Shown here in pieces: positions 5,614 through 54,282 of a stretch of DNA of 64,000 nucleotides. The position numbers and the translations under genes are program-made. Origin of the DNA: Trypanosoma brucei (lineage: Eukaryota); contig CH464491.1 in the NCBI GenBank assembly GCA_000002445.1, positions 1,248,001 to 1,312,000 on the forward strand. Direction: 5' to 3'. Every line of letters starts with the position of its first letter. Position 1 is the first letter of the stretch. A model generated the notes under the pieces. It searched no databases and was not told where the DNA came from. It was given only the letters and a program-made list of their open reading frames with translations.

Positions 5614-8349
5614 GGTAACGGAGGAACCTAGGTTTTAAATAGAAGTAGAAGGAAGAAAGAGAATATTAGTGAAGAAGAAAACATTAACCTCCGCAACTGC
5701 ACCTCTACAACACCATATCCTTGAGGGAAAGGAAGGAAACAAATGTGACGAAAACCTGCACACGACAGATATCAACCCAACGTTCACACGACAGAGACGG
5801 TCCACGACCAGGGACTCATGGTCACACCCGTGATAAGCAACAGCACGACATATGTCAAGCGACTCAATTCGACAACACGATCGAACTGGGGGGAGGGGAC
5901 AAGGTAAACTCAGCCCTGGAGGGGATAACAGTCAACGCAAGTTGCGAAAAGGTGGTAGGGATTCCGCTGATATGACGAAAAATAAAACATCCTGAGAGTC
6001 GTATGCCAGCTGGATCATGCGGTCCTCACTAAACATTAAGCCATCAGTTGATGCCCCCTCACCACGAAGGCCGCCAATAGCCACAACACGTCCAAAGCCA
6101 AGCAAACGAAAATGGATGAGAGCCGCCGTGTCACCCACCCACTAGCTTTTGACTCGTAGCCCTTCATACAATTAGATTATCTAATTTCCCTTCGCTACAC
6201 CTTTTCTATCGAGAGGCCCTGCGCGAGGAACAAAGGTTTTTACACCTTTCAGCGCAACCCGCAGCAGTGGCCCCTGGGAAACGCCACCGGCATAACAAAC
6301 GTTAACCAGCTGCCGCGAAAAATGCGTCCCCACATAAACAAAACAAAAACCCACTGAAGCGGGAGGTACACCACAGCACCAACAAGAGAAGGGAAAAGGA
6401 AAGCAACGACTGGTAAGAATGTACAGAAAATGTCCCAAGGACAAAGGCAAAAACCTCATGGCGGAGCGTTTGTTCCCACAAAGACGAGAGATTAACAGCG
6501 AAAGCAAAAAAGAAGCCTTGTTAACTTTATGTCCGCATTCCCATTTCTTATCTCTCTCAACGACGAAGCCAAATGAAGTTAGACGGCTCGTAGGGCACAA
6601 CGGTTGCTAACAAGCGAACATGGGAGGACAGTCACCTTCCTTTCCTTGCAGCAGCAACACCACCACGTTTGCATAACGTGTTAATTGCGCATTCCTTCCT
6701 TCACTCCATCAATTTTATCACACTTTATTTCCTTGCTCCTCCCCTCTGGCACAGCTTAACTCAGGCACTGGGCGGTACTTTGACCTGGAACTCATATACA
6801 GCATGTAAAAATAGGTGCGCAGTGGAAAATACGAAAGGCGCAGAGGAATCCACACAGGCGTTAAACGGCTTGGGAGCAAAAGACAGAAAAAGAACAAGCG
6901 AAAATAACAGGAACACACACAATTAAAAAAGAAAAAACGAAAAAAAAAGATATTTACTTCATTTCTACCTAATTCATGAGGTGAAGCAAGGAAGGATGTA
7001 AAATAAGAAAGGAAGTACCCCCCCCTCATATGCAGGAACACCTCCCGATTTTGTCGCAGCCACTCCGTAACTTGTGTTCCGTTGACCATCCTTTTCTTAA
7101 TATCTCCCTTTGAATTGGGATGTTTCTCTTCCTTTCTTTTAATTCATACTACTTCCTCCTTTGCTCTAAGCCCTGCCGCTCCTCCCGCTCTCGCTAATTC
7201 CCCGCTCCATCATGAAAACAATACGTATGCTCACCTGGAGAAAAGAGAAAGAAACTGGTGGTGCACATATACACAAGCACATGTTATCCCCTTTACATCT
7301 CATATATACGCACAGAGCCCTCTTCACAGAAGCATAAAAACGTGCCCACCCATGCACACACATTCGCGGTTTACTACACTATTCTCACTGGTATCATTTC
7401 TTCCTTTGATCAAAAATACCTACAAATAAAGTCAATACAAACATACAACAACATCTGCGCGGAAGCTTGTTCACATTTATATATTATTAGATGTAGTAAC
7501 CCTTCTCACAGTGTCTTATTCGTCACCGTTGACTCATTCCCCTTTCACACAAATGAACAAAAAAAACATAGTTACATTCTATAATGATAATTTGACCTCG
7601 AGACCGAGAATAAGTAGTGTAGACCTCCTCACGTTACCTCGAGCACGGTCGGCAGCCATTCCTAAACCACTTCATCCCCATGCATACTCTTCCCCCAGTG
7701 GAATGTTCACCCTTACATATTCTCTCCCCCTCCTCCTTTAATTCTTTAGGTACGGACCTCTCTCCTTTGCCCTTGTTTGCACCCTTCCCCCGCTTTTTAT
7801 TGTCTATCATGGCATTTTTTTTTTTCGCAAATCGGATTGTTCTTTCATTCTTACATGGCCTTCGTGGGGGCGAAACCGCATTCACATTTTTCCAAATGGG
7901 GAAAAGTAACACGAGAGCAAAAAGCAAACCCCCACAGAGTAAAGTAAGGGTGCATCATGCAAAGTGAGCGGACAGACTAATGAACAATGAAAAGTACATC
8001 AAGTAGTTTGTTTTTTTTTTAGGTGCGAAAGGAAAAGAAGACAAGCATCCCCGTGGTGTGTAAGTTACTCAAGGGGAAAGTAGCTTTTGGTGTGGCTGTT
8101 ATGTGAGCCCCTATTCGCACCACCTCCACTGAGACAGACAATGAGTGTTAACCTGGTAATTTATCTTGAAGCACGACAGAGCAACCTGCGCGGTGCTCCT
8201 TAACAAAAGAAGTACGGTTAGGGTTACGCAGATATGAGTGCACAACTCCTTCTCCATATACATATATATATATTTGCCTACATTGAAACACTTGTCTTCG
8301 TTTCTACACCTAAGTGCTAGAGGACAAGCACAGAGGTGGTTGTACTACC

Positions 8350-9939
8350 TCACCGAAAGTGGATCTCCTTTTTCCTACGACCCAACCTGTCAAGGTGGTC
8401 GATCTTAATCCCACCACCAGGTCTATAGGTGAATTTATCCCGTTGGCCACCGTACGAAGCTATTGCATTTCTTAGTTTCTCCTTGGCACCGCTCTTCAAG
8501 CGCTGATGCGCACTAATGACGCAGGGTTTGAACATCTTAAGAGCACGCGACACCTCCACCTCCGTGAGGGTATCAAGCATCGCACCAACACATTCCAGCA
8601 GAGCCGCAGTAAACTTCATCTCGCTAACGGACGTTTGAAGGGTGCCAGCATGTGAGGAAGCAAACTTATTCACGATATTAGCTAAGTCCGGCTCCCTAGC
8701 AGCTGCATTCAGGTCGGCTGTCACCATCTCATCACACTGATCCTGGGCGAGGGAAGGAACGAGGAAGTTCAAAAAAGATGAATGCAAAGCGACTTTGTCC
8801 GCATCTTCAAAACCAGCCTCCTTCATCCGCTTGCGAGCTTCATAAGGCAGAGCGGTGCCGCGCGATGGGTCATGGTCAACACCGATAGCAAAGTGAATCC
8901 ACAAATGATCAATCGTGTCACGAAGTTCAGACTCACCCACAAGTAACAGCGAAGAAATCGCCAAATCCTGCAGCAAATATATTTGTTCTTTGCGTTTACG
9001 GCGGAAGTTCATCACATCCTCTCGACTAAAGCTGCACAGCCTCTCACCGCGCGAGAAAGCTTCGCCAGAGAGTCTTAACCACGAGAGAACTTCATGTGAT
9101 CTGCAGCAGTTCCATTGGGTTACAATGATGTCTGCAACGGTGTTTATACTCGTTGGCACGTAAATTTCCCTTTTCGAGGGCTCCTTCTTCCTGGAGGCAC
9201 CTTGGACTTTCGCGTACGACTCACCTATATCAGGCAGCGCTCCCTCAGCCGAACTTACCATCGCTTGTTTCCGCCACTCACTCACGAGCGCATTGGTAAA
9301 TGCTTCGCTCCACTTACGATCCGAGGCTAAATTGAACCACACATACTGTGAGTTCTTGGGGATAATCGGGTACGATCCATCCAAAACAGGTGCACTGCTA
9401 AGAACAGCGTCCGAGTGATCCTCGGCATTAACCTCGCCGGGCCTCCGGCGCTTAACGTGCAGACGAAAAGAAAGGTTGGGACAAGGAAGCCCATCACCAA
9501 CAACCTGTTTGACCTCCGCTTCTGCCTCTTCGGGCTGTGTCACCGGATCTGTGTGGATAAGTACGACCGTTTCCTCGTTTTTTCCGGACTTTACTGTCGA
9601 AATGCGACAGCTACCGTAGAACATTATGTAAGGCTCCGGACGTCGAGTCGTCTCCACCACCTGCACAACCAAGACGACCATTTCCGTGCTCGGTGGAAGC
9701 TCATACTCCGTACTTGTATTGTAGAATGGAGTATTGGACCCCTCTTGTAGTGGTGACTCGTAGACACTGCCAATTGTTTCCTTCAGAAGGCTGTCGTACA
9801 AGATGAGACGCGCATACGTCGAGCACGCGCATGGATCATCCTCGGTTTGCGGGTAGTTGCGGCCACGGAGAATGTCCACATGAAGACGCACCTCCTGTGC
9901 AGAGGGGACGCTGGTTGCTTCCTTAGTTGGACGATCCAT
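8350..9939 (-). CDS. Hypothetical protein (529 aa). The N-terminal segment may be a C2-like beta-sandwich (weak call).
   Basis: It starts with ATG (MDRPTKEATS...). The composition is non-repetitive and protein-like throughout. The N-terminal run EVRLHVDILRGRNYPQ resembles the first strand of C2 domains. No other motif is recognisable. Confidence 0.5.
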   Translation of the reverse strand: MDRPTKEATSVPSAQEVRLHVDILRGRNYPQTEDDPCACSTYARLILYDSLLKETIGSVYESPLQEGSNTPFYNTSTEYELPPSTEMVVLVVQVVETTRRPEPYIMFYGSCRISTVKSGKNEETVVLIHTDPVTQPEEAEAEVKQVVGDGLPCPNLSFRLHVKRRRPGEVNAEDHSDAVLSSAPVLDGSYPIIPKNSQYVWFNLASDRKWSEAFTNALVSEWRKQAMVSSAEGALPDIGESYAKVQGASRKKEPSKREIYVPTSINTVADIIVTQWNCCRSHEVLSWLRLSGEAFSRGERLCSFSREDVMNFRRKRKEQIYLLQDLAISSLLLVGESELRDTIDHLWIHFAIGVDHDPSRGTALPYEARKRMKEAGFEDADKVALHSSFLNFLVPSLAQDQCDEMVTADLNAAAREPDLANIVNKFASSHAGTLQTSVSEMKFTAALLECVGAMLDTLTEVEVSRALKMFKPCVISAHQRLKSGAKEKLRNAIASYGGQRDKFTYRPGGGIKIDHLDRLGRRKKEIHFR

Positions 9940-11652
9940 ATCCTGATACCTTCTCGTGCTCAGTTTAAGCCTAGCTTCTTTCTCTCACACCTACACCGTC
10001 TTCTTTACTGTAAGAAACCCCCCAGAGTTACAATTGTGTGACGGGCCGGGTGTTTCGTTCACGGCAAAGGAAGTGATAAATGAATAGTGGTATGAAGAGG
10101 GGGAAAGGTCGCAAAACGAAGCAGGGCACCCCAATCACCATCAAAAGATAAATATTCTATATATTGACGAGCATACGCGCAGAGACACTTTAATTTCAAT
10201 TTACTGATGCGGTTAGAAAAGCGTCAACCATGTTTTTCCTCATGAACAACTGGTTCCGCTCAACTGCGCCGTCATCCGCTATCCTTCGATACACGCTATA
10301 CCTTTCCAACTTCCATCAACACCTTTTAGGCTAGTCCCTTCTCACTTACACCCAATAACCTTTTAAAGCAAAATGTACAAGGGACATATCTCTTAAAACG
10401 CTCAATCTATCAGCGTCGTTGTCATTTAGTTAAAGAACAGAGGTCACAAACATCTTGACGGGAAGATACCAAGCTACGTAAGGCAGGGAACGACTTCGCT
10501 TAGAAGTCGACGATAGTCTGTTCCCTTGAGCATGCACCTAGATTTTTTCCTTTGTGTGCTCTTATTTACTGGACCCTTCTTTTCTTCAATAACTCACAAC
10601 CCACTGTTGGACGGCACGTACCTGCGCATCTGTGTACATGTGGGAACTACAAACACTTTCGTGTATACCCTTGCTTCGAGAAAGGAAGTTAAGGTTACAC
10701 ATAGGCGCAGTTTAATCATTTACATTGCGAAAATAATCTCATTACCTACCCCACCAACGCACAGAGCGTCAAAAAAAAATCGAAAGAAAATATAATTCCC
10801 TGGATAGAATTGGTTCCCTCCCTTCAACTCACCAGTCTCGAAATAGATTCACGCGGGAAACTGTACTAAACGGCAAGGGAAAGGGGAAGTAACTACGTTG
10901 TATTGGAGCGAGCTTACATACGAAAAACACACAAAAAAGCAACACCGCAGATATATACATAGAGAAGAACGATGAGAGGGCATAGTGATCACAGGCAAGT
11001 GGAGACCCGGCAGTATGCTCCCGCCCAATGTCACAGCACCCTCAACCTTTCCTGCCGTTACTTGGCGTCAAAAACTCAAATACCGTAGAAAACCGTGAAA
11101 GCATGAAAAACTAACGGTAAAAGACAACCACAGTGAAAAAAAAAAGATCAAAGAGAATCGTGCAGCATTGCGAGGGAGGAAAACAAAGCAATCCTTAGGA
11201 GAAACCAACATATATATGACCTAAAAGCGAGGGTAGAAACACCTTGAAGAAAAACTAACACGAAACAACTGAGAAAAAAATCAGCAAAAACATGCTCGAC
11301 AAACGTAGAGCGACGGTGATACGGGAAGTGTTCCCACTCGCATCGCGCTGAACACTCCACCCCCGAGACAACCCTGCGTTAGCATTTGTATTAAGAAAAT
11401 AGACGAAAAGTAAAGGGCATACTGACACTTGGTAACAAAAACACAGGGACAAGAAAACGGCCCCCAGCAATAAAGAGTTGGAGGAGCAACAGTTGAAATC
11501 GAATCACAGACGCCACCAGAGATTATGTGTCACTGTTGTCGATCAGTTGTATTTACTCCCACTTACTTGCAATCACCCCGACGTCTCTGCCAAGATTACA
11601 TATGTTTTTCAGGTGATTGGCTTGTTACCTCCCACACACACTAGATTTGGTT

Positions 11653-13992
11653 TTATAATAAAAATGTTTCCTGGTGAAAGTCAACCCCAAGGGAATGGGC
11701 AACACTTCTTGCCAACTCCACGAGGACGGGGGAACCGCAGGCAAATAAGAGCACGGTTCTGGGATCTTTGCCGGCAATTACCTGCGGTATCCTGTCAAAA
11801 ATATCCATCCGTTCATTCACCACACATGTATATTCTCCATCTTCCACATTACAACCGCCGGTGAAAAACACCTGAATTCGGTCACTGGGAGCCTCCTCGA
11901 TTGTAGACGAGGTCGAAACAGCGGACAAGTCGCCTCCCTGCCAAAGCTGCGACATTAACAACAAAAGTTCCCTGTCACGCACGCTCCACAGAAGCATGGG
12001 AGTCGGACTCCTCAACCCCAGAGCCATGCGATCGCAGATATGACTATATACGGACGCGCATGGAGTTATACCGATGCCTCCTGCGACAAACAAAATGTTT
12101 TGATGTTCGTTGATATCTAGTGCACGGCCACATGGGCCTTCAACATACAGTTTAAACTTCAATCCGCGTCTACACACCAACTTACCCAGCTTTTCTGTCC
12201 ACGTGCCCTCACCCATTGATTTGATATAGAGTAAATAATAGCCTTCGTGTTCACACATTATACTGAAGGGATGCCACTGTAGCAGCGATATGTCGGGAAC
12301 GTTTACAAACACAAACTGCCCAGGTAATGCCCCCAGCGACCCATGTCGGAAACGAATCTCCACAAAGGAGCCGGACGCAGTAGCCGACACGAGGTCCACT
12401 GTCGATCCACGGCGATATATCCTCAGAAGCCAGTCTAGGAACCAAATAGTCAACCCGGGGAGGAAGTATTCCCATGCTGAGGCCGCATGCCACAACACAA
12501 CCGGTACCAACATGTAGAACGTGACGATGTGTGCGTAGTAGAAGAGCTCGTAGAAGCGGCGACGAAGGGGCTCCAATGCAAAAATGATTGTCGAAACAAG
12601 GGAAAAAAGTGTCGTAAGGGTGATAAGTGGAATTGTGTAGTCATCTCTGTTACCGGGAGGATCAACTGCTGGAATGGAAAAAATCCCTTGTGGAAAGACA
12701 CCCAGTTCAAAGCAGCGCACGTACCAACCTATCGCGTGACCAACGATACCAAGCAACGCTCCGTATCCAAGGAGCCTATGAACCCAAATGGACGACTCCC
12801 ATGAGGTCCCCAAAATTGAGTGAAGCACAGAATAACGACTCACGGGAAATATGGAAAGCGAGAGAAAAGCTACGGCCAACTGACCCATTGAACGATACCA
12901 TCGCTCGGATGATACCGTGTCATTAGAGATGTCAGTGTACCTCTGCTTAAAGTTATGACCCTGGATCCAGTACAAAAAAAATAGCACAATCATTGAAAAA
13001 GTGAGAAAAAGAAAACCCACCTCGCCGTACGTGTAATCACGCAACACTGGGCATCTCCGCTTGAGAAACCTCCGCCCGTAGCGGAAAGAACGAATCAACG
13101 CAGTGGTAAGTAGTATAACGAACAAGTAACCGTAGAATATCAGATTACTTGGGTACGCCTTCAGCACTACCTCGTCATTTATTACCAAATTTCTCGTGCG
13201 TATCCACGACCACGGCAGATCCGGGCAAGTGTATGTATGAGGCTCAGTTCGGCACAGGGTGTAGTTGTGCGAGCTGAGCATCCTGGCATTTCTTGCTATG
13301 CGCACAGGCAAAAACGATTCTAAGGAGTTCGGCATATAAAGTGATACAACGGCCCAAAACGAGACGAACGCGACGGCGAACAGGAACCTCAAAAGTGGTG
13401 CGAATCGATCTGAGACAAATCGACGGCCTTTGTGGCCTGTCCAAAAAGGGTCAACGCCGAATACACGGCGTGCGGCTTGAAAGAGGATTACAACTCCGAT
13501 CGGAACGAAGGACAAGAACGCTGCCAAACCAAGACCCGAACGGAATGCAACGCCGGCTTCTGGACGGCCACCTCGGTTCGTCGAGGCAGTGCTCCCGGTG
13601 CAAAAAACGGCAAGGCACTGCATGGTCTCGCTTCCCCACACAGCTCCTAGACCCCCTAACACGACAAACACCAAACCTAGCATCCCCATTAAAATAAGAC
13701 CCAAAATGCCACCATGTATGCAAGCGAGAGTGCTTGTCCCGACGTACAGTAGAGAAACTCCCAGTGTAGAAAACACGCCGAAGGAAAAGAGACCAATAAA
13801 GTTCAGTGCATCGTAACCCGCCCAATTACTTGGATGCGGGCCCACGTTGTTGAACATTTCAGCCTTAAACCATAACAGAAGGCCTAGCACCGCTATGCAC
13901 ACACTGATAGCACCCACAAAAAGGAGTTTTCGCGCAGCAACAAGAGTACTGACATCATACCCCGTTCTCGTTATGTGTGGGATTAAATCCAT
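11653..13992 (-). CDS. NADPH-dependent ferric reductase (NOX/FRE family) with an extended multi-pass N-terminal membrane region.
   Basis: It starts with ATG. It carries a ferric-reductase transmembrane domain with paired His residues (HRLLGYGALLGIVGHAIGW). The FAD-binding HPFS motif is present in HPFSIMCEHEGYYLLYIKS. The NAD(P)H-binding motifs are present as GPCG in LYVEGPCGRA and in FVAGGIGITP. About 10 hydrophobic helices precede these motifs. Confidence 0.8.
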   Translation of the reverse strand: MDLIPHITRTGYDVSTLVAARKLLFVGAISVCIAVLGLLLWFKAEMFNNVGPHPSNWAGYDALNFIGLFSFGVFSTLGVSLLYVGTSTLACIHGGILGLILMGMLGLVFVVLGGLGAVWGSETMQCLAVFCTGSTASTNRGGRPEAGVAFRSGLGLAAFLSFVPIGVVILFQAARRVFGVDPFWTGHKGRRFVSDRFAPLLRFLFAVAFVSFWAVVSLYMPNSLESFLPVRIARNARMLSSHNYTLCRTEPHTYTCPDLPWSWIRTRNLVINDEVVLKAYPSNLIFYGYLFVILLTTALIRSFRYGRRFLKRRCPVLRDYTYGEVGFLFLTFSMIVLFFLYWIQGHNFKQRYTDISNDTVSSERWYRSMGQLAVAFLSLSIFPVSRYSVLHSILGTSWESSIWVHRLLGYGALLGIVGHAIGWYVRCFELGVFPQGIFSIPAVDPPGNRDDYTIPLITLTTLFSLVSTIIFALEPLRRRFYELFYYAHIVTFYMLVPVVLWHAASAWEYFLPGLTIWFLDWLLRIYRRGSTVDLVSATASGSFVEIRFRHGSLGALPGQFVFVNVPDISLLQWHPFSIMCEHEGYYLLYIKSMGEGTWTEKLGKLVCRRGLKFKLYVEGPCGRALDINEHQNILFVAGGIGITPCASVYSHICDRMALGLRSPTPMLLWSVRDRELLLLMSQLWQGGDLSAVSTSSTIEEAPSDRIQVFFTGGCNVEDGEYTCVVNERMDIFDRIPQVIAGKDPRTVLLFACGSPVLVELARSVAHSLGVDFHQETFLL

Positions 13993-16900
13993 AGAACAGG
14001 AATTACTCTCAACGGTTTTGTTTCTCTATATCACTGCGTTGCAGAATATGGGGAAGTAAATGGTAGCCCTCGGGGAAGGTGAATGGCAAAAGTGGTGTCA
14101 GTACAGCAGGGGGGAAGTTCAGCTTAATCTTTTTAAAAGGTAGTAATAAGAAACCACAGACCCACAAACTGGACGCTCAACCGCGTTTAAAGTTACCGTT
14201 TAAGACGCGCAAATAAAAGTTGTCTCTCCGTTATGAGAATACTTCACTCCTATTACCCACTTTCGACGCTTTTCTCACTCCGATACTTCGAAACAGACCC
14301 TACTAATGGTCTCGTCCCAGCTGAAACATAATATCTCCATCTGCACCCAATGCCCAGTCCATTGAAAACCAGCTCAGAAATTGTCACTTCTGGCTCCCTA
14401 ATCTTTAACACAACTTGCTTAGCGGCGGATGTCATGACCCTATGTGTAAAGGAGATATCGTCTCCTACATGAATCAGTGCATTTTGCTCAACGTAAACAC
14501 ACCCTGCGTTTGACCGAGTTGAAACCGGTAGCTGATTCCCCACAAACAACTGAACCTTGCAAGTCCAACTCCCTTCCTTTCAGTACCTTCATGCCCCTTG
14601 AGAGACCTTCTACGTTTCAGTGATTCATGACCGGTGTTGTGTTTCTGCTTCTCGTCAAAACTGTAATATGGAAGGAGGTTTCCGAGCTAATGTCGGTCAA
14701 ACGCTCGAAGGCAGTTTATCACATTACGAAAGTACTGCTATAACACAGCTATACAACAAGGGAAAGTTTTTAAAAAATAAATACACCGTTAAAGCGCAGT
14801 TACCCTTTTTCCATCCCCCTAACAACTCTACAGGTAAGAAAAAAATGTGCTGCGTCGTAATGGACCCCAACATCTGGCAGTTATATGGCGTTTCCACTCT
14901 CCTCCGAAATTACAAATTGGCTGACGTTTCCATGCGTGTAACGATCATACTGCGAACAAAGCAAAGAGACCAGGTAATTTTGCGAAGCACTCCTTAAATA
15001 TACCAAAATATCCGTCAAAATGCTGACCACCTTGATAGAAAGCCTTTTTCCGCAAGAAGATAGAAATACCTCCGAAAAAATCCGGTTAAAACATAAAGCG
15101 GTAAAGGTTACGACATCGTAAAACAGATCACAAACATGCATATATAAAGTTGAAAATACAGTACATGCACGGTCTTTCAATCAAAAATTTAAAAATAAAA
15201 GCAACCAAAGTAAAGGCATTTTAAAAAAATAAAAAGAAGAAAAAGCGGCAACCAAAAAAAAATAAAATTAAGGGGTTGCACGATTTCCAACACATATACC
15301 GGCGAATGACAGACAGTGCTAACTCTTTATTCCTCTTGGCACTGCGAAGAGACAAAAAACTGTGGAAATACAACTTCCTCTTCCCAAAATGAATAATTGC
15401 CCACAACATCTTCGCTTCACGATTGTGGTTTATCACTGAACCCGTATGGCTCCCATGTTCCTCCTCTTCACCTTCCTGACTTCCACAGCTTCCCTCACAA
15501 TTATTTAATATTGTGAACACAAAACACACGTAAGTCAAAACGGTCAAATACAGACAAGTTACGGGGAAGACGGGACCACCAATCCTTCAAATATGAGACA
15601 AAACCTCTACAGCTCACTGTTCAGCATGCTGCGTAGACAGCTGAGACCACATTAGCGACAAAAGGTCAAAAAATGCACAAAGTCCCCGCCCCAATTATGG
15701 TAATCCCCTCTACAAAGATCATCTTGTACAACTGGTGTACAACACACCTCCGATGGAGTTAGATCTACTATACCACACAATCATAAAGATGGAAGACGGA
15801 CATCAAGAGAGGCACCGTTGCTCTGCCATCACAGAGCACGAGCAGCAGAAAGCAGGGCCGATGCGTAACCCCCTTGATCGCACCTGCGCAGGTGAATCGA
15901 TCGATTTAGTGAAAAAACAGTCTTTAAAAAAATATCATACACCTCATATTACCGTGTAAATTCCATTGCAACAAAGCAAAAACTTAGTAATAACGGGAAG
16001 TTGACGTTACGATCAACTGTGCCGACGGCCGTGCCACAAACAAATACCAGAAAGATATAACCATTAACGCGCCAGAAACCGCAGCCCACTGTGATCACCA
16101 AGTCAGCAACTGGCCAAAAAGACAATATTAGTTTTTGAAGAGCTAGTAAAGACATCACACGTATAACGTCAACGGCACAAAGTGGTTGTACTCCACGCAT
16201 CGGGGAATTCAAAAGAAGGTAAATTAAGTTCCCTTCATACAGAGGTAGTTTCTCCTCCATTGGCACCACCTGAGACTGACCTAGGAAACAGGGATGCCTC
16301 AAAGCCTGTTTGGTCACTCCTTATTTGTACTGTTAACCCCCCGAAGTGCCACAAAGAAACGACAGCAGAGGAAACAGATCCTGTGCGCATCACAGCCCCG
16401 TTACAGGGATGTGTCATTCAGAACGCATGCACATACACGGAGGTGTGACCGCACCGCTCACGTCCAGTTCCCCCTCGTGCCACCACCGCCACGTCCTGCA
16501 CGAGTAATGAATTCGCTAGAACACATTCCCGCACCAAGAGAACCGAACGGCAAAAACAAAGAATTGAAAAGAAACGGACCCACGCGCACTGTCGGATACT
16601 TAGATCCAATAAAAGTGATCACTGCACCTGCCTCGCCGCCGGGCGATCACGCCCTCCTTTCCCCTCGGTCGGGCGGCTCCGAGTACGCACCAAACACATT
16701 CACGGGTGTCTGGGACACCACACCCTTCACCACTGCCACCAAGCACTCACATACCGAACACCGTTGCGATCTACGGTATCCCTCTTGCTCTCCTTCGCGA
16801 AAGATGCCACACGCGACAGCGACCACAACAAACGGATCAGAGAGGCAAGACGGGGGCGACGCGAAAGCAAGGAGGCAGGAACCCACCCACTGGACGCCGG

Positions 16901-19721
16901 CGGCAAGGCCTGCAAGGCACGTGAGCCCTTCACGAACCATTTCCACCGCCCCCTGTGAAGGCCCCAGCCGCCCGACAAAGTCGCACTGCCCTTGCGGCCT
17001 GCATCGCCGGGGGAAATAGGAGAGCCGATAATACCTCTAGTGGAGGGAAGTTTTGATGACGCTGAGCACCTCCAACTTTCAACTACAAATAGGTTCCGGA
17101 GTCCCTGCGCACCGCAGACCGCAACGACAGAATACCTCAGAAAGGAACACTGTCAGCCACTTGGATAAAAGCAACACCGCCTCTTCCAATAGATGAATAT
17201 CAACCCACAAGACAGCGTGATTTCCAGATACGCCGGTCACCCCACCGCGGTGCCAACGGAAAATACTTCACAGATAAGGGAAGCCAACATCTAGCACACC
17301 ACTCGAGTCATCAACTTGGGGCTCGCACTTACGACACATCGACCAGAGCACACGCGCACAGCACTAACAGAGAATTTCGGGTAACGTATAGCCTCTAAGT
17401 ACGCACTATTCCCGACGCAATCGCGTTATCACATACCCGCGTTAATGGAATCGTCCTGTTCCTGAACACGGACGTCGAAAAGAACCAAGTTCTTATTTTC
17501 TGTGGAACAAATTAGGACGTGAGAGGACTCCTAGACGAGAAAGGTCGACCTTTACTGATGTGCCTCGCAAAAAGGTGTCTTCCTCCAGCCAACACCCGAT
17601 GCGATCCCAGCATCCCGACGGAAGTGGGGACGCTTAGTTTTTCTTGAGGGTGGGCGCTTTTCCATGACGCCACGGTGTACCGTCGGCCGTTGATGCGGTG
17701 GCGCGCTAGTTTTGTGGGTCATGGCTGCCGAGCGTCGTTATTCACCAACACGACATTCGAAGTGGTAAAACCCCTCAGCCTTTCCGTCCCGCCTTTTGCA
17801 ACAGAGTACCGGTTTTCTGAGGTTCCTCCCCAGCGCGCGTTGATCGTCAAAGTCGACGAGGGTTTCGGGGGGAGAGCGTGCGACTAGAAATTTAAAATGA
17901 TGAGTGGGCGGCCTAGCCGGACCGCGCTGGAATAAGGTGGCAACCATTCTGCGGGTGTGAACCCTTGGAGCTGCGCGTTCGCTGTCGCGGCCTGCCGGTG
18001 AGCCGGGCTGCCCGGTATACTATCGAGGGAGTAGGTACTTTTATGCCGTGCTCGTTAGGTGTTTCTGTCCGCGTTTCCTCCTTGACCGTAAGGCTCTCAC
18101 GTTCCGGCTTGGCGAGGTACCGTGTTCGTGGGAACGTGAGACTTTGGATTCCCGGTTTTGCAGCTTGGTGGTGAAGCGGGCCTTCTGTCCTTGACGGTGC
18201 CGTCTGCCGCCTGTGACAGAAGCGAGTTCCGTCGCGTCAGTGGTCCCAATCTAGAAGGGTCCAGGCAACCCCACTCTCCCTGTGCCTACCGTATCAGTGA
18301 CAGATTTGTGGGAGGGGGGGGGGGTCTCTTTCACGCGTTGCTGGACTTGCGCAAAGGACTTTTGCCAACGCTGCACACATTTCCTCTTTTACCTTTTGTT
18401 TTCCCAGCTCATCAAACTGAGTGCGTTCATGTGCGTTGTGGGTGTGACCGTTGTAGTCGAACGTTTCTGATGTAACCCAGGAAATACGTTAGACGACAGA
18501 GCTCACCAGACCGCGTCAGCGCTCCTCCGCGCTTTGGTGACAACGTGAATGTAGGGGCGGTGCTGATATTTGGTCGCCCGTGTATAGCAACGTTTTCTTA
18601 CCAAATGCATAATCGGTCAAAAAGTATGGAAGCGGAACTAGGGTGTCAAGAACATGTGCAATGTGGCAATCGGACTTTGTGGCTTGGCTTAGTTGCTATG
18701 AAATAATTAGCACTAAAATCTTTCCGTGGTTACGACGAATCTTTTCTTGATTGTGGTGTGTTTGATTGCAAACACGGAGGTGCAGACGTTCAAGCACCCA
18801 GTTGTTTGGCTATATTAAATAGGTTTGGCGGGCAGTTCGTCTGTCTCCACCCATGCTCACACCTGGTCATTAAGAAAGGAAGCTGCTTTTTCTAGGGGAA
18901 ACATGGACAGAGCTACCGATAAAGCTAACTGAGTCAACTTTTGCTTTTTCTTTTTTGAGAAAAAGTCACAGGGATCCCTAACCATATCTTTACTAGCATG
19001 AAATTTATGGAAGCCTTTCGTTGTGGTATGATTTACCGTAACCGCCAGGGGTGAAAACCGGTTAGTGGGTAAAGTGATTACCGTCTATATCACCAAAAGT
19101 GTCTATTGCCCGTAGTATGTTGATACTATAGGTAAATTTCTGTTGTTCGTTTCTTGGGCGTATTTACGAGGTGTGGTGGTTAAGTTGAAGTTTTTTTTTA
19201 ATTTCGAGAGTCCTTTTTTTTAAAAAAAAGGAGGCTCTCTCAGATGAGAAGGGAAGAATTGGTAATGACATTAGGTATGTGCGAAGCAGAATGTAACGGT
19301 GTCATTGCCTTCGTCATTGTTGCACACTCGATCAATTTAATTTAAAGACGTAGGTACCACAAGTCCTAATCAGAGGTGTGTGGTAAGGGAAAAAGCAACA
19401 ACATGTTAACCATTGAAGAGACTAAGAAATTCGGTCCTTTTTTTGTTATGTCTTGCGGGGTTTCCGTGAACCTTATCATCGGAGGTATCTCTAGTACCAA
19501 CTGTTTGTCTTGCTTGATGAGCTAATTATTTTTTAAAATGAAATGATGAACCTTTTCTTGATTGCGGTTATTGATTGGTCGCTAAGTGCTTCCTTCTATT
19601 TAGAGAATTTTGCAACATAACCCTAACCTATTTTCGCCACTGTCTACTTTACTAAGGTTTGTTAATTCTTAAGTATTTCGCACGGTATAATCACCGAAAA
19701 AAATTTATACCACGACCAAAG
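13993..19721. promoter_or_regulatory. Divergent strand-switch region between the two polycistronic units. This is the putative RNA polymerase II transcription start region.
   Basis: Every gene to the left is on the minus strand and every gene to the right is on the plus strand. There is no convincing ORF across 5.7 kb. The region is GC-rich. The plus strand is CA-rich at about 16.4-17.3 kb, which makes the minus strand GT-rich there. The plus strand is GT-rich at about 18.3-19.2 kb. There is a G11 run at 18314-18324. Confidence 0.6.
18314..18324 (+). repeat. Homopolymeric G11 run inside the strand-switch region.
   Basis: The sequence reads gtgggaggggggggggggtctc: eleven consecutive G, with three more G two positions upstream. 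Confidence 0.9.
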
Positions 19722-20075
19722 ATGTCAGAAAAAGGTGGTGACGACAGTCGCTCTTCTCAGGTTCGTGTTAGTGTTAAGCGCCGTAATTTCTCCTACGTGG
19801 ATTCCATTAAGGTCCGTCTCAGCGGAGGAAAACCGGAAGTTACCATATCTGCATTGGGTAAAGCCATATCAGATGCAGTTGCTGTCGCCGAAATACTAAA
19901 AAACCAAGGGCTTATCGATGTTAAAAAAATCACAACCTCTCGGGGCGCCGCTGAATCTGATGGCGACGCGGTGAACGACAAGATCGAAATACTGATTACA
20001 AAGTCTAAGGACTTTGACACAATATATGCCGAACAACAGAAAAGGAAGTTGGAAAACGCTGATAAAAAGGAGTAG
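19722..20075 (+). CDS. ALBA-domain protein (small Alba-type RNA-binding protein), first of a tandem pair of paralogs.
   Basis: The track ORF starts at a TTG at 19659. The first ATG, at 19722, gives MSEKGGDDSRSSQVRVSVKRRNFSYVDSIKVRLSGGKPEVTISALGKAISDAVAVAEILKNQGLIDVKKITTSR... This is the Alba fold signature with a lysine-rich C-terminal tail. It matches what I recall of T. brucei ALBA1/ALBA2, which are adjacent on chromosome 11; I cannot say which copy is which. Confidence 0.8.
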   Translation: MSEKGGDDSRSSQVRVSVKRRNFSYVDSIKVRLSGGKPEVTISALGKAISDAVAVAEILKNQGLIDVKKITTSRGAAESDGDAVNDKIEILITKSKDFDTIYAEQQKRKLENADKKE

Positions 20076-20638
20076 CGGTGATTTAACAAAAAGAGAGAAT
20101 GAACGGTAAATCCGAACTTACGTGTGCTTAGGGGGGGAGAAATAGGCTGCTGAAGGGCATGTGTGGTATACATATACATCATATGTCCCGGTGTAAAGGG
20201 GAGATAACTGGTGAAACGGAGGGTTAAGAAACAGTTCGAGAATCACACTCAGCTATGTTTTTTTTTTTAAAGGTGGGATCTCTCTTTTTCGTCTTCGATA
20301 CAATTATTGATATCGCCGTGTTTTACGGTAGCATCCAGGAAAAGAAAAGTAGAATAGGCCAGTTTATTTTTGACATCGCCTGATTTTTGAAATATTGAAA
20401 GGAAACATTCACTGCTGTATCTATTTGTTTCCTTTTTACCATTTGTATTTACCCTTCACTTCTTTTCATAATTGGTAACATAACGATCAAAATTAAAAAA
20501 TATATTGGGATAAGAACAGCGAAAATACCACACAAACACCAAACACACATACAAAAGTATATCTGCTACTTTAAAAAAAAAAAAACTTCGAAAGAACTTT
20601 GGAACAACTCAAGAAGACAAACGAGGAACTCGCTGCAT

Positions 20639-21016
20639 ATGACGACAGGAAAGAGCGACCGCCCCAGGAACTCCGTCCGGGTTGGCTATCGCGGTACTAA
20701 ATTTCTATTTGTTGATATAACCAAGCACCTTTTGCACGATGGCGAGAAGGAAGTATATGTTTCTGCTCTCGGTGGCGCCATCAACGAAGCTGTGTCCGTT
20801 GTGGAGATGCTGAAGGATCAGCAAATGGTGGTTGTAAAAAAAATCACCACCTCGCGACAGGTCAGTGAGGAACCAGACGACGGCCCTGTCGACAAAATCG
20901 AAATCGTTGTTACGAAAGCAGATGGTTTCGACGCGAAATATGAAGAGCAACAAAAGGCTCGCGAAGCTAAGAGGCTCGAAAAGGAGAAAAATGAGAAGGA
21001 GAAGGCTACAGCGTAA
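20639..21016 (+). CDS. ALBA-domain protein, second tandem paralog.
   Basis: It starts with ATG and contains ...VYVSALGGAINEAVSVVEMLKDQQMVVVKKITTSR...DKIEIVVTK... These are the same VKKITTSR and DKIEI(L/V)(I/V)TK motifs as the upstream gene. It has a lysine/glutamate-rich C-terminus. Confidence 0.8.
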   Translation: MTTGKSDRPRNSVRVGYRGTKFLFVDITKHLLHDGEKEVYVSALGGAINEAVSVVEMLKDQQMVVVKKITTSRQVSEEPDDGPVDKIEIVVTKADGFDAKYEEQQKAREAKRLEKEKNEKEKATA

Positions 21017-21036
21017 TGAAGAGCGAAACCGAAATG

Positions 21037-21066
21037 AAGAGAGGGAGAGAGAGAGAGAGAGAGAGA
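21037..21066 (+). repeat. (GA)n microsatellite in the 3' region of the second ALBA gene.
   Basis: The sequence gagagagagagagagagagagagagaga is directly visible. Confidence 0.9.
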
Positions 21067-21390
21067 ACGGAAAAAATGAAAATACACGAGGTACACGGGG
21101 AAATATGTTTTTCATTTGGGCCGGCTTTGATAACCCATATCTTTGGAGAAGATGGAAAGAGAAAGTAAAAGGATAGTGGCTCTGGGACAAGAAAAGGAAG
21201 AAATATACTAGGTATTGAGAAGTCATCCAAGGTCCGTGTTTAAACTTGATCAGTTTCACGAGTGTTAACATCTTTTCGCAAAGGAGGGAAAATATTACCT
21301 TTTCGCCTACTTTTTTCTATGCCATCTAATTCTGTTGTAGGTCACCTTTCTTTGTGGTTGTGTAGGTGCTGCTTTCCGAAAATTCGGAAT

Positions 21391-24300
21391 ATGGACAACT
21401 ATACCATAGTCGAACTTATAGGGGAAGGGTCGTTTGGAAAAGTTTACAAGGCGAGAAGAAAGGGTACGGGTCACATCGTGGCGATGAAGTTCATAGTCAA
21501 GAAAGGTAAAAATGACAAAGAACTTCTTAACCTTCGTAGTGAAATTGAAATTATGACTAAACTCAACCATGACAACATCATAACGTTGTTTGAGGCTTTT
21601 GAAACTCAACAAGAATTCGTTGTGGTAATGGAATACGCCCAAGGTGAATTATTTGAAATTCTTGAAGACGATAAAAAACTCCCCGAAGAGGTTGTCCGGC
21701 GCATCGCGAAGCAATTGTTGCAAGCACTTCATTACTTGCACTCGAACCGCATTATGCACCGCGACATGAAACCTCAGAACATCCTCATAGGACAGAACGG
21801 ATCCGTGAAACTTGCGGATTTCGGATTTGCGAGGACGATGAGCTACAATACGATGGTGCTAACCAGTATTAAGGGAACACCCCTCTATATGGCACCAGAA
21901 CTTGTGCAAGAGCAGCCATACAACCACACAGCAGATTTGTGGTCTCTCGGGTGCATTCTATATGAGTTGTTGTACGGCAAGCCGCCCTTTTATACGAACC
22001 ATCTTTATAAGCTGATCAACCAAATCGTCAACGACCCCGTAAGATTTGAAGAACCTATATCACCGGACTTCAAGTCGCTTTTGAAAGGACTTTTGACCAA
22101 ATCGTTCTCGGCCAGATTAAACTGGCCACATTTACTTAACCACCCATTTGTTGCCATCACTGGGGACGATGAGAAGTGGTTGATGGCGGTAAAACAGCAC
22201 GACACGAAGATGAAGGAACGCATGGAACGACTAGAGTGCCTGCGACATCACGCTCAACCAAACAGGGTTGTTGAATTAGATGCAGGTGGCCCGTGCCAAA
22301 CGCCCGGGAACACGCATGGGTTTCCACTGGGTTCGGAAGAAGATGAAATATTTTCACCTTCCTCGTTAAAGTGTCTACTTTCTCCTTCAGATGGCGAAGG
22401 TTGTATTGAGGCGTTCCGTGGGCTGCTAGTTGCGGTTGAAAACGCTACATCATTGCCCCTTCAGAAAACTGCTTTGTTAGAACGAATCCTACACGTTGGT
22501 GTTTTGGGACCTATAGTACGGCACTTATGTGACAAGCAGTCAGCCGAAATGAGCCGACTTGCTGTCCAGATAATCAAAACCCTCGTGTTTCCGGAGGGTA
22601 ATGCTGTGTTACCGTTTCCTTCTCAGCGACCCTTACAAGAAACAATAGATGCATCACCGCAGCCAGGCGACTTGCCACCTGTTGGCCTTCTTATTCGACA
22701 ACAGGTTTCTCTGGAGCTACTAGAAAAACCCCGAGAGTCCCTCGACTTTCTTGTGAAAGAAGTAATTGAAAATCGTCATGGGTTTCGCGTGGATTGTGTT
22801 AAAATAATTTTCCAGTGTGTGAGGTGGGGAGTAGGTTTTGGACCTGTTTTGACCCAGTTGAAGCTTTTCCCTTCATTTTGGGCGTCATTACTTGACTCCG
22901 TGACAGAGGGAAGCCATTTTCAGACGTACGCGGCACTAGCATTCCACACCGTTTCTGCGATGATTCCGCACATAAAGTTGTCCGCCCCAGATCAGATAAA
23001 TGCAGACAAGGTGTCCGCATTTGTCTCTATTGGTTTGCTAGCCGTGCGTTTCTATGATTTGTCAAAAAGTTCGGATATAGCTGCGCTTAACTCTGCCGCC
23101 GCTGCAGCTCTTCTGGCCGCATTTGTTCACCGGGAAATGAAGGACACAATGGTTTTCGAACCAGACGCGGCGTTCATGGAAGGGTTATGTGCCATAGTGA
23201 AAGATGTAAGAGGAATTGCCGATCGCAATAGTGTCTGGCGAATTCTTGGAAATGGCTATGGCTACCCGGATTACGGATTTTTGGATGGAGTAGTACATAC
23301 TTTGTCGGTGATGTTTTCTAATCCACAATCTATCGTATACCAAAATAGTGGTCAGCTCCCTTCGCGCTCATACCTTGACAGCGATCAAAAAGGACTGTTG
23401 CGCATTGCTGTTGAACTACTCCGCGATAGTGACCCAAAAACCGAACTGTCGCCTAATGGTGTGGTTGCTGCTCTTCGATGCGTGCAGCAGGCCTGCCAGC
23501 ATCAACGAAGGGATGAGCATTTTACTAGTCTTCTGTTGGAACGGATAGAAGCATATCGTGGGGACAGTGGAGGTCCAGTTTCGGTTGCCGGCGTTGTTTG
23601 TCATCAACTACGAGCAAGCTATCTAGGGCAACTTCGCTCTTGGCCCGAACATAGTGGTGGTGGCACGGTTGGAGTAAACGCGCATCTTACCGTAGTTGTT
23701 CAGATACTGCTAGCGGCACTTCAGACATCCAAACAGGGTTCGGAGTCAGACGACGAAGCCAACGCCTCTGTGCAGCAAATTTTTTACAAAGAGGGACTTA
23801 TGGAGATGCTGATTGTTGCGCTTGACTACACTCAGGTAGCATTTTGGGGTCCACCGTTCAACATTATAACAAAGCTGGTGGTAGGGTCACCGCCATTCGC
23901 CAAGGCTTTCGTTGACGGTGGTGGACTGCAGTGTGAGAGAATAGGAAAGGTCCTGGATTCGAAGAAGGCAAGCGCAGGGCTCGTGTCGGACGGACTTAAT
24001 GTTCTCTCTCAACTAGCCCGGCTTTCCAAAGATTTTTACCTGCCAATTCATAATGCAGACTTGTACAGCGCGGTTTTAGAACTGCTGCGGCACAGTGACC
24101 CAGGGATTCGGAGCAAATCATGTAACCTGGTAGGAAACCTATGTAAACACTCACCATACTTGTACGAACCCCTCGCGAGACACGGCATAATTGATATGCT
24201 GGTTGAGAGATGTAGTGACAGGGATCCCGCAACGCAGAAATTTGCAGCATTTGCTGTTGGGAATGCTGCGTTCCACAATGGCTCCCTTTACGAGAAGCTA

Positions 24301-49345: not shown

Positions 49346-49366
49346 GGTGTGTGTGTGTGTGTGTGG
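49346..49366 (+). repeat. (GT)n microsatellite.
   Basis: The sequence gtgtgtgtgtgtgtgtgtg is directly visible, just after the RING-gene stop codon. Confidence 0.9.
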
Positions 49367-54232: not shown

Positions 54233-54234
<2 letters not shown>

Positions 54235-54270
<36 letters not shown>

Positions 54271-54282
54271 TTATTTATTTAT
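54235..54282 (+). repeat. (AT)16 followed by (TTTA)4 compound microsatellite.
   Basis: The sequence atatatatatatatatatatatatatatatatttatttatttatttatg is directly visible. Confidence 0.9.

What the first reader, a model, noticed from the sequence alone, without database searches (positions are those of the whole stretch)
13993..19721. A 5.7-kb divergent strand-switch region with mirrored GT-rich strand skew and a G11 run is the likely bidirectional Pol II start site.
Gene orientation flips here: five genes to the left are on the minus strand and about nineteen to the right are on the plus strand. The gap has no credible ORF. The composition is polarised. The plus strand is CA-rich from about 16.4 to 17.3 kb (for example ccaccaccgccacgtcc and caccacacccttcaccactgccaccaagcactcaca), so the minus-strand transcript is GT-rich. 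The plus strand becomes GT-rich from about 18.3 to 19.2 kb (gtgcgttgtgggtgtgaccgttgtag, ggtgtggtggttaagttgaag). An 11-G homopolymer sits at the switch point (18314-18324). In T. brucei, divergent strand-switch regions are the H2A.Z/H4K10ac-marked transcription start regions, and GT-rich sense-strand elements have been reported to drive initiation. The mirrored skew seen here fits that picture. The coordinates where the skew flips (about 17.5-18.3 kb) predict where each unit begins.
Basis: partly seen in the sequence, partly recalled or inferred. Interest (0 to 1): 0.55.

Follow-up and report, generated by a model that had tools for sequence, protein, structure and literature searches.

The report
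Known trypanosome divergent transcription start region
This 5.7-kb gap is a genuine divergent strand-switch region of Trypanosoma brucei chromosome 11 where two gene arrays start in opposite directions, but this very site was already mapped as a start region in 2010 and its strand skew is an ordinary property of trypanosome non-coding DNA.

Summary
The window is T. brucei TREU927 chromosome 11 (window = chr11_v4 minus 1,248,000). Gene orientation flips between a ferric reductase gene (11653-13992, minus) and the first Alba gene (19722-20075, plus). GT/CA skew is mirrored. The change point is at 17,620 (support 17,488-17,638; LR 121.7, against at most 42 in shuffles). G11 is at 18314-18324.

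Kolev et al. 2010, Table S14, lists Tb11.02.1990 and Tb11.02.2030 as the first ORFs of two "Divergent" Pol II units, based on 5'-triphosphate RNA-seq.

Corrections:
- The skew runs through both gene arrays. Its size in the gap (0.157) matches ordinary spacers (0.13-0.20), so only the sign change marks the site.
- Published GT-rich 10-mers partition 19:0 by strand but are no denser here than in spacers.
- G11 lies about 700 bp right of the flip, has no minus-strand partner, and varies in length (G9-G11).
- The gap holds a mapped trans-spliced transcript, Tb11.NT.55 (15069 to 14135, minus). This confines the minus-unit start to about 15.07-17.6 kb.
- The 241-aa ORF is not a gene.

Verdict: real, ordinary, already known.

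The parts
11653..13992 (-). Ferric reductase gene (Tb11.02.1990), the first annotated ORF of the minus-strand transcription unit.
   Evidence: Pfam Ferric_reduct, FAD_binding_8 and NAD_binding_6. Kolev Table S14 names Tb11.02.1990 as first ORF of a 'Divergent' minus unit. The ID was assigned from the coordinate offset, with neighbour Tb11.02.1980 fixed by its poly(A) site.
14135..15069 (-). Tb11.NT.55, a published trans-spliced and polyadenylated 'novel transcript' inside the gap. It is 934 nt, at 0.73 RNA per cell, with only 34-60 aa ATG ORFs.
   Evidence: Kolev Table S7 gives chr11 1263069->1262135 (-). In the window the 5' end is preceded by AG and a U-rich tract on the minus strand.
15070..15290 (-). 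AG acceptor and long polypyrimidine tract (an A-rich, 33-36% GC block on the plus strand) that serve the Tb11.NT.55 splice site.
   Evidence: Sequence read directly. GC is 0.33-0.36 in 15001-15400.
15070..17619 (-). Interval that must contain the minus-unit start region. It runs from the first mapped splice acceptor to the skew change point. The sense (minus) strand is GT-rich.
   Evidence: GT skew is -0.19 to -0.27 per 200 bp. All 12 Wedel 10-mers in the left arm lie on the minus strand. The bounds are inference.
16294..17019 (+). A 241-aa ORF annotated as Tb11.02.2020. It is a chance ORF, not a gene.
   Evidence: Listed among ORFs with no detectable transcript (Kolev Table S2). No Pfam match. 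It has 5 in-frame stops in haplotype L002, and substitutions by codon position are 9/10/5, against 10/9/28 for the ferric reductase gene.
16400..18400 (.). GC-rich core (56% GC overall, up to 62% in 400 bp) that straddles the skew flip. It includes the two highest-GC 400-bp windows of the whole 64 kb.
   Evidence: CpG observed/expected is 1.03. It is not conserved: 3.7% divergence from L002, against 1-2% in coding sequence.
17488..17638 (.). Support interval of the GT/CA skew change point (best estimate 17620). This is the compositional boundary between the two units.
17620..19604 (+). Interval that must contain the plus-unit start region. It runs from the change point to a candidate Alba splice acceptor (ttccttctatttAG at about 19604). 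The plus strand is GT-rich.
   Evidence: GT skew is +0.04 to +0.26 per 200 bp. All 7 Wedel 10-mers in the right arm lie on the plus strand. The acceptor is my reading of the sequence, not a mapped site.
18310..18324 (+). GGGA followed by G11. It is a G-run of the kind enriched at the 5' end of T. brucei start regions, and the only canonical G-quadruplex motif in the gap.
   Evidence: Wedel Dataset EV1. The length varies: G11 in the window, G10 in L001 and G9 in L002.
19722..20075 (+). First Alba-domain gene (Tb11.02.2030, probably Tb927.11.4450), the first annotated ORF of the plus-strand unit.
   Evidence: Pfam Alba. The published poly(A) site 1268365 equals window 20365, which is the stop codon plus the published 290-nt 3'UTR. 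Table S14.

Best explanation
The gap is the divergent strand-switch region between Tb11.02.1990 (ferric reductase) and Tb11.02.2030 (Alba) on T. brucei chromosome 11. It holds two oppositely oriented, dispersed RNA polymerase II transcription start regions.

Proposed mechanism:
- Pol II starts over a broad zone on each side of about 17.6 kb.
- Leftward transcripts start between about 17.6 and 15.07 kb. They are first trans-spliced at 15069, giving Tb11.NT.55, and then upstream of the ferric reductase gene.
- Rightward transcripts start between about 17.6 and 19.6 kb. The G11 run at 18.3 kb marks the likely 5' edge of that start region. They are first trans-spliced just upstream of the Alba gene.
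- The RNA between each start and its first splice acceptor is discarded.

The mirrored GT skew records the direction of transcription on each side, so its sign change marks the boundary between the units. It is the same skew that all non-coding DNA in these arrays carries, not a promoter-specific signal.

What is shown and what is inferred:
- Shown here: gene orientation, the skew and its change point, the G-run, the splice signals of NT.55, and the absence of a real protein gene in the gap.
- Shown by others for this locus: both flanking genes head 'Divergent' Pol II units, from 5'-triphosphate RNA-seq.
- Inferred from the known biology of these regions: H2A.Z/H2B.V/H4K10ac chromatin, the exact start positions, and any causal role for GT-rich or G-run sequence.
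For: Identity of the locus: the offset of 1,248,000 fits the Tb11.02.2020 ORF, the poly(A) sites of Tb11.02.1980.2030.2040 and .2210, and the NT.55 splice site with its AG. The Alba protein has an exact match in a T. equiperdum contig with the same gene order.

Published start-site assignment: Kolev 2010 Table S14 and the text of section 10.

Orientation and real flanking genes.

Skew flip: 17620, LR 121.7, null maximum 42.3.

Strand partition of the published coding-strand 10-mers: 19 sense, 0 antisense in the gap.

G-run: G10 is the leading 10-mer at the 5' end of start regions, and G11 is present on the plus arm.

No gene, tRNA or Rfam RNA in the gap.

Conserved boundary: Alba is also the first plus-strand gene after a gap of more than 5 kb from minus-strand genes in L. 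infantum. The skew flips there too (at about 4.6-5.0 kb of L009), so the boundary is old.
Against: No read-level data were available, so the nucleotide positions of starts in this gap are not shown.

The skew magnitude (0.157) equals that of ordinary spacers (0.13-0.20). The published GT-rich 10-mers are sparser here (3.3 per kb) than in most spacers (4-19 per kb). The sequence therefore gives no start-specific signal beyond the sign change and one G-run.

The left arm has no G-run of 7 or more on its sense strand.

G10 runs also occur at 49395 (+) and 60101 (-), where Kolev lists no start.

The gap is no better conserved between haplotypes than neutral sequence.
Confidence: 0.9

Rival explanations
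1. The skew is a passive by-product and plays no part in starting transcription. Transcription-linked mutation bias, together with selection for U-rich splicing and polyadenylation signals, makes the sense strand GT-rich wherever Pol II runs. Initiation itself is set by chromatin or by short sequence-specific core promoters of the kind reported by Cordon-Obras et al. 2022. This agrees with the best explanation on what the region is. It differs on cause.
For: Sense-strand skew is the same in ordinary spacers of both arrays (0.13-0.20, against 0.157 in the gap) and is present, though weaker, in coding sequence (0.047). Wedel 10-mers are denser in ordinary spacers. The strongest T-rich block of the left arm (15.07-15.29 kb) is plainly the polypyrimidine tract of the NT.55 splice site. 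Wedel et al. report that synthetic GT-rich elements gave 11.6-fold less expression than an endogenous Pol II locus.
Against: Wedel et al. showed orientation-dependent reporter activity and H2A.Z deposition for synthetic GT-rich elements. A causal contribution therefore cannot be dismissed. The skew persists through 15.3-17.6 kb and 17.6-19.2 kb, where no splice site is mapped.
Confidence: 0.5
2. The compositional flip reflects a replication origin. ORC1/CDC6 binds at the boundaries of transcription units, and 19 of 42 early origins sit at divergent strand-switch regions. Leading/lagging strand asymmetry would then produce or add to the skew.
For: Tiengwe et al. 2012 place ORC1/CDC6 sites and many early origins at divergent strand-switch regions. 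GC skew and GT skew both reach their cumulative minimum at the same point (17616 and 17619).
Against: About 80% of ORC1/CDC6 sites are not active origins. No origin at chr11 1.26 Mb is named in the text I could read. The skew follows transcription direction over the whole 64 kb and is stronger in spacers than in coding sequence, which fits RNA-level constraints better than replication.
Confidence: 0.1
3. The GC-rich core (16.4-18.4 kb) is the decayed remnant of a gene or retroelement, so the gap is wide only because a gene died there.
For: The core has the highest GC of the window (0.62 in 400 bp), above typical spacers and like coding DNA. It contains the longest ORF of the gap. In T. theileri, retroelement fragments lie upstream of the Alba genes.
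Against: The 241-aa ORF has no Pfam match. Six-frame segments of the gap gave no meaningful tblastn or blastn match to the upstream regions of T. cruzi, T. theileri, T. rangeli or L. infantum (best 26.6 bits). Substitutions show no codon-position bias. The L. infantum gap also has a GC peak (0.73) at its skew flip, which suggests the core is a feature of the boundary rather than debris.
Confidence: 0.07

Closest known systems
T. brucei divergent strand-switch regions / Pol II transcription start regions (Siegel et al. 2009, from my own knowledge; Kolev et al. 2010, PMC2936537)
   Same: Divergent gene arrays, a several-kb gene-free gap, and a listing of both flanking genes as heads of 'Divergent' Pol II units. 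Sense-strand G and T excess and a G-run are present. The first splice acceptor lies downstream of the start zone.
   Different: Nothing of substance: this is one of those regions. Local details are that the G-run is on one arm only and that a trans-spliced non-coding transcript (Tb11.NT.55) precedes the first protein gene of the minus unit.
GT-rich dispersed promoters (Wedel et al. 2017, PMC5579346)
   Same: The coding-strand 10-mers from their Dataset EV1 fall only on the sense strand of each arm (19:0). G10, their top 10-mer at the 5' end of start regions, is present on the plus arm.
   Different: These 10-mers are sparser in the gap (3.3 per kb) than in ordinary spacers of the same arrays. 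The minus arm lacks a G-run. Promoter activity of these particular blocks is untested.
Sequence-specific core Pol II promoters in T. brucei start regions (Cordon-Obras et al. 2022, Cell Rep 38:110221; known to me only through citing papers)
   Same: The model is the same: two oppositely oriented, direction-specific promoters inside a 5-10 kb divergent strand-switch region.
   Different: The paper is not in the library, so I could not obtain the motifs or scan for them. No block of the gap stands out as conserved between haplotypes.
Leishmania divergent strand-switch regions, such as L. major chromosome 1 (Martinez-Calvillo et al. 2003, from my own knowledge), and the orthologous L. infantum Alba-upstream region fetched here (L009)
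   Same: Alba heads the plus-strand array after a 5.2-kb gap from minus-strand genes. GT skew flips at about 4.6-5.0 kb of L009, with a GC peak at the flip. G8 runs lie on the plus arm.
   Different: There is no sequence similarity to the T. brucei gap. The left-hand neighbour is an acetyltransferase gene, not ferric reductase.
Mammalian CpG-island bidirectional dispersed promoters
   Same: Broad initiation, sense and antisense primary transcripts, a GC-rich core with undepleted CpG (observed/expected 1.03), and H2A.Z chromatin. Kolev and Wedel themselves draw this analogy.
   Different: Each start feeds a polycistronic array processed by trans-splicing. No per-gene regulation is known.

Membership tests
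T. brucei divergent strand-switch region with Pol II start regions | Two gene arrays transcribed away from each other, with a gene-free gap between them. | tested here: met
   Minus-strand genes run up to 13992 and plus-strand genes from 19722, all with Pfam support. The only long ORF in the gap is spurious.
T. brucei divergent strand-switch region with Pol II start regions | Primary (5'-triphosphate) transcripts begin inside the region on both strands. | tested here: met
   This was met through published data, not by reads I mapped. Kolev 2010 Table S14 lists Tb11.02.1990 (-) and Tb11.02.2030 (+) as heads of 'Divergent' units, and the text says 5'-PPP reads were enriched at every divergent unit. 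Nucleotide positions were not available.
T. brucei divergent strand-switch region with Pol II start regions | Enrichment of H2A.Z, H2B.V, H4K10ac, H3K4me3 and BDF3. | not testable with these tools
   No ChIP-seq tracks are accessible. It is expected from the general rule.
T. brucei divergent strand-switch region with Pol II start regions | G/T excess on the coding strand of each arm, switching sign between the arms. | tested here: met
   Skew is -0.175 and +0.127, with the change point at 17620 and LR 121.7 against a null maximum of 42.3. The feature is necessary but not specific, because spacers show the same skew.
T. brucei divergent strand-switch region with Pol II start regions | G-run on the coding strand near the 5' end of each start region. 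| tested here: inconclusive
   The plus arm has G11 at 18314-18324. The minus arm has no C-run of 7 or more on the plus strand. Not every start region has a G-run: there are 132 G10 words over 199 regions.
GT-rich promoter element (Wedel 2017) | Local enrichment of the coding-strand-biased 10-mers. | tested here: not met
   Strand bias is perfect (19:0). Density is 3.3 per kb, against 4-19 per kb in most ordinary spacers.
GT-rich promoter element (Wedel 2017) | Orientation-dependent reporter expression and H2A.Z deposition. | not testable with these tools
   This needs transfection and ChIP.
Sequence-specific core promoter (Cordon-Obras 2022) | Presence of the defined promoter motifs in the correct orientation. 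| not tested
   The paper is not held, so the motifs are unknown to me.
Replication origin / ORC1-CDC6 site | ORC1/CDC6 ChIP peak and an MFA-seq peak. | not testable with these tools
   The text of Tiengwe 2012 names no origin at chr11 1.26 Mb.

The most novel reading that the evidence does not exclude
The roughly 2-kb GC-rich, CpG-undepleted core that straddles the skew flip is a sequence-encoded platform that fixes where the bidirectional start domain forms. This could work through nucleosome or H2A.Z preference. The core includes the highest-GC 400-bp windows in the whole 64 kb, and a GC peak sits at the skew flip of the orthologous L. infantum region. On this reading, the start of the 'Alba-first' array is a boundary kept since the common ancestor of trypanosomes and Leishmania, even though the primary sequence and the left-hand neighbour have been completely replaced.
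Probability: 0.15. Interest if true: 0.45.

Novelty: already known. Interest (0 to 1): 0.12.

Why it matters
It matters little beyond confirming that the scan works. A reader with no tools correctly recognised a trypanosome Pol II start region from raw sequence and placed the boundary within about 1 kb.

The useful lesson is a caution. In trypanosomes the GT skew marks transcription direction everywhere, so only its sign change is informative, and GT-rich 10-mers do not single out start regions in this window.

The bounds derived here are about 15.07-17.6 kb for the minus unit and 17.6-19.6 kb for the plus unit. Together with the one-sided, length-variable G-run, they give a concrete locus where public 5'-triphosphate and H2A.Z data could test how much sequence contributes to start-site choice.

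Tried and rejected
1. tRNA or other RNA genes as the reason for the gap: ARAGORN and Rfam found nothing in the whole window.
2. The 241-aa ORF as a real gene: rejected.
3. A true inverted repeat between the arms ('mirrored' in sequence): only short, weak pairs, the best 26 nt at 73%. The mirror is compositional only.
4. A conserved element in the gap: divergence from a 97%-identical haplotype is 3.1-3.7% across the gap, against 1-2% in coding sequence, with no clearly conserved block.
5. Similarity to orthologous upstream regions in T. cruzi, T. theileri, T. rangeli and L. infantum: none of note at DNA or six-frame protein level.
6. T. congolense and T. vivax would be the best comparators. The T. 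congolense proteins have no contig on record, and the T. vivax contig ends inside the Alba pair.
7. Mapped splice acceptors for the Alba and ferric reductase genes: not in the stored parts of Kolev's tables, nor in Nilsson 2010.
8. Start-region coordinates in Staneva 2021: not found.
9. Cordon-Obras 2022 and Siegel 2009: not held.
10. A named replication origin at this site: none in the readable text of Tiengwe 2012.

Full report
**Where the window comes from.**
The first Alba-domain protein (19722-20075) has an exact match on a T. equiperdum contig with the same gene order, and that 11-kb stretch is 99.7% identical to the window. Supplementary tables of Kolev et al. 2010 (PMC2936537) then fix the window on T. 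brucei TREU927 chromosome 11: window coordinate = Tb927_11_01_v4 coordinate minus 1,248,000. Several independent coordinates fit this offset:
- Tb11.02.2020 is given as 1264294-1265019, which is the 726-nt ORF at 16294-17019.
- The poly(A) sites of Tb11.02.2030, .2040, .1980 and .2210 fall exactly at stop codon plus the published 3'UTR length.
- The 5' end of transcript Tb11.NT.55 lands directly after an AG that follows a long U-rich tract.

From this, the ferric reductase gene (11653-13992, minus) is Tb11.02.1990 and the first Alba gene is Tb11.02.2030. From paper titles that cite Tb927.11.4470 and .4480, the current IDs run .4450 and .4460 (the Alba pair).4470 (Fused kinase) and .4480 (radial spoke protein). 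That last step is inference.

**Checking the observation.**
Gene orientation flips as described. Minus-strand ORFs with Pfam domains run up to 13992. Plus-strand genes run from 19722: two Alba genes, a kinase with HEAT/ARM repeats, a radial spoke protein, an AMP-binding enzyme and more. The quoted strings and the G11 run at 18314-18324 are present. A G10 is expected 0.01 times in dinucleotide-preserving shuffles.

The composition is polarised:
- Left arm 13993-17619: GT skew -0.175 (z = -10.5).
- Right arm 17620-19721: GT skew +0.127 (z = +5.8).
- Cumulative GT and GC skew reach their minima at 17619 and 17616.
- A likelihood change-point fit gives 17620, with support 17488-17638 and LR 121.7. 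The maximum in 1000 shuffles was 20.1 (base shuffles) and 42.3 (50-nt block shuffles).

The skew is therefore real, mirrored and far beyond chance.

**What the skew does and does not mean.**
The same polarity runs through both gene arrays over the whole 64 kb. Sense-strand GT skew compares as follows:

| Region | Sense-strand GT skew |
|---|---|
| The gap | 0.157 |
| All non-coding DNA outside the gap | 0.096 |
| Coding sequence | 0.047 |
| Left-array spacers (individually) | 0.138, 0.143, 0.164 |
| Most right-array spacers (individually) | 0.13-0.20 |

Only the left arm, taken as one 3.6-kb block, exceeds every same-sized window elsewhere, and windows of that size always include coding DNA.

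I took the 10-mers that Wedel et al. [quoted passage not shown] In the gap they partition perfectly: 12 on the minus strand left of 16822 and 7 on the plus strand right of 17813, with none antisense. Their density is 3.3 per kb, lower than in most ordinary spacers, which have 4-19 per kb. GT-richness here therefore reports the direction of transcription. It does not single out a start site. The informative feature is the sign change.

**The G-run.**
G10 is by far the leading coding-strand 10-mer in the 5' fifth of T. brucei start regions, with 132 occurrences against 17 on the other strand. A G11 on the plus strand, 1.4 kb upstream of the first plus-strand gene, therefore fits the known signature. 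Four qualifications apply:
- It lies about 700 bp inside the right arm, not at the flip.
- The left arm has no run of 7 or more Gs on its sense strand.
- Its length differs among three haplotypes: G11, G10 and G9. With the preceding GGGA, G11 makes the only canonical G-quadruplex motif in the gap, and the G9 allele loses that three-tetrad motif.
- Other G10 runs occur at 49395 (+) and 60101 (-), where Kolev's table has no start. The next listed start heads Tb11.02.2390, which lies beyond the window.

**What else is in the gap.**
There are no tRNA genes and no Rfam families.

The 241-aa ORF (16294-17019, annotated as Tb11.02.2020) is not a gene:
- It is in Kolev's list of ORFs with no detectable transcript.
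- It has no Pfam match.
- It carries five in-frame stops in a 97%-identical haplotype.
- Its substitutions fall 9/10/5 by codon position, against 10/9/28 in the ferric reductase gene.

The gap is not empty of transcripts, however. Kolev's Table S7 lists Tb11.NT.55, a trans-spliced and polyadenylated 934-nt RNA at window 15069->14135 on the minus strand, at 0.73 copies per cell. The sequence shows its AG acceptor and a strong polypyrimidine tract just upstream. That tract accounts for the A-rich, 33-36% GC block at 15.0-15.4 kb. Its longest ATG ORFs are 34-60 aa.

This transcript pushes the start of the minus unit to the right of 15069. The two start regions must therefore lie in about 15.07-17.6 kb (minus) and about 17.6-19.6 kb (plus). 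The right-hand bound is a candidate Alba acceptor that I read from the sequence and that has not been mapped.

**The core of the gap.**
The interval 16.4-18.4 kb is 56% GC, with the two highest-GC 400-bp windows of the entire 64 kb (0.62). CpG is not depleted (observed/expected 1.03). I tested whether the core is a dead gene or a dead mobile element:
- Six-frame segments of the gap have no meaningful match to the corresponding upstream regions of T. cruzi, T. theileri, T. rangeli or L. infantum, and there is no DNA similarity either.
- The arms are not inverted repeats of each other.
- Divergence from the second haplotype is 3.1-3.7% throughout the gap, against 1-2% in coding sequence, with no clearly conserved block.

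**Related loci.**
The order Alba, Fused kinase, radial spoke protein, AMP-binding enzyme is kept in T. vivax, T. theileri, T. cruzi and L. infantum.
- In L. infantum, Alba is the first plus-strand gene after a 5.2-kb gap from minus-strand genes. The GT skew flips at about 4.6-5.0 kb of locus L009, where GC peaks at 0.73, and G8 runs lie on the plus arm.
- In T. theileri the upstream neighbours are retroelement fragments.
- In T. cruzi no confident gene lies within 8.6 kb upstream.
- In T. rangeli the ferric reductase gene has same-strand genes upstream, and in T. cruzi it sits in a five-copy tandem array.

The right-hand array start therefore looks ancient, while the left-hand partner has changed. 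This rests on very few loci.

**Published evidence for the interpretation.**
[quoted passage not shown] Table S14 lists, on Tb927_11_01_v4, Tb11.02.1990->Tb11.02.1600 (-) "Divergent" and Tb11.02.2030->Tb11.02.2370 (+) "Divergent". These are exactly the two genes that flank this gap.

The general picture it invoked is also established. It comprises H2A.Z/H4K10ac-marked start regions, G/T coding-strand bias, G-runs, and GT-rich elements that can drive directional transcription. Wedel et al. also note that synthetic GT-rich elements reach only about one-twelfth of endogenous Pol II expression.

**Mechanism and confidence.**
I put 0.9 on this being a divergent strand-switch region that holds two dispersed, oppositely directed Pol II start regions, as described in the best explanation. 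Whether the GT bias and the G-run help cause initiation or merely record it is open. I give the passive reading about 0.5. A replication-origin contribution (0.1) and a decayed-gene origin for the GC-rich core (0.07) are not excluded but have little support.

**Verdict.**
The feature is real, correctly read and ordinary, and it is already known at this exact locus. Interest is low.

Noticed in passing
window 49346-49405 (+): A (GT)n stretch followed by G10 lies on the plus strand, directly after the stop codon of the ORF 48475-49344. This is a stronger match to the Wedel 'start region' 10-mers than anything in the gap (11 sense hits in the spacer). Yet Kolev's Table S14 lists no start here: the unit runs unbroken from Tb11.02.2030 to .2370. 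It is either an unlisted internal start region or evidence that G-runs are not specific.
   Followed up: partly
window 56374-61774: A very AT-rich (30-35% GC) 5.4-kb stretch with many A and T runs. The published poly(A) site of Tb11.02.2210 at window 59930 makes most of it a 3.5-kb 3'UTR. It carries G10 (60101-60110) and G8 (59849-59856) runs on the antisense strand, a G-quadruplex motif at 59138 (+), and Wedel 10-mers on both strands (73 sense, 37 antisense).
   Followed up: partly
window 18734-18757 and 19545-19568 (+): A 24-nt direct repeat, GAYGAAYCTTTTCTTGATTGYGGT, with 21 of 24 positions identical and 0 matches expected by chance. It extends weakly to about 40 nt. The second copy sits about 155-180 nt upstream of the Alba start codon and may be part of its splice-acceptor region. 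The first copy might mark an upstream alternative acceptor.
   Followed up: partly
window 19206-19237: A near-perfect palindrome, GAGAGTCCTTTTTTTTAAAAAAAAGGAGGCTCTC (T8A8 core, 90% complementary), lies in the right arm. [quoted passage not shown]
   Followed up: no
L001 and L002 compared with window 11000-22000: Two assemblies (GCA_001457755.2 and GCA_003543875.1) differ sharply here. I take both to be T. equiperdum. One is 99.7% identical to the window and the other 97.06%, with 280 substitutions and 30 gaps in 11 kb. Divergence drops to about zero right of 21 kb. This suggests two old haplotypes, or a recombination boundary near the Alba genes.
   Followed up: partly
window 51937-52368, 54033-54524 and 57996-58466 (+): Three more annotated ORFs (Tb11.02.2180, .2200 and .2220) are in Kolev's list of ORFs with no detectable transcript, so they are probably spurious. 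A novel transcript, Tb11.NT.56, maps to window 52265-52956 (+).
   Followed up: no
L003 (T. cruzi) 2907-19834: The ferric reductase gene is present as a tandem array of five copies in T. cruzi. In T. rangeli (L004) it is single, with same-strand genes upstream. The left side of the T. brucei gap is therefore not syntenic with these species.
   Followed up: no
L006 (T. theileri) 1716-5547: Minus-strand ORF fragments with RNase H and reverse transcriptase domains (a broken retroelement) lie 3 kb upstream of the T. theileri Alba pair. The plus-strand GT skew stays positive through them.
   Followed up: no
window 21041-21066: A (GA)n microsatellite (gagagagagagagagagagagaga) lies just after the stop codon of the second Alba gene, inside its 203-nt 3'UTR.
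   Followed up: no
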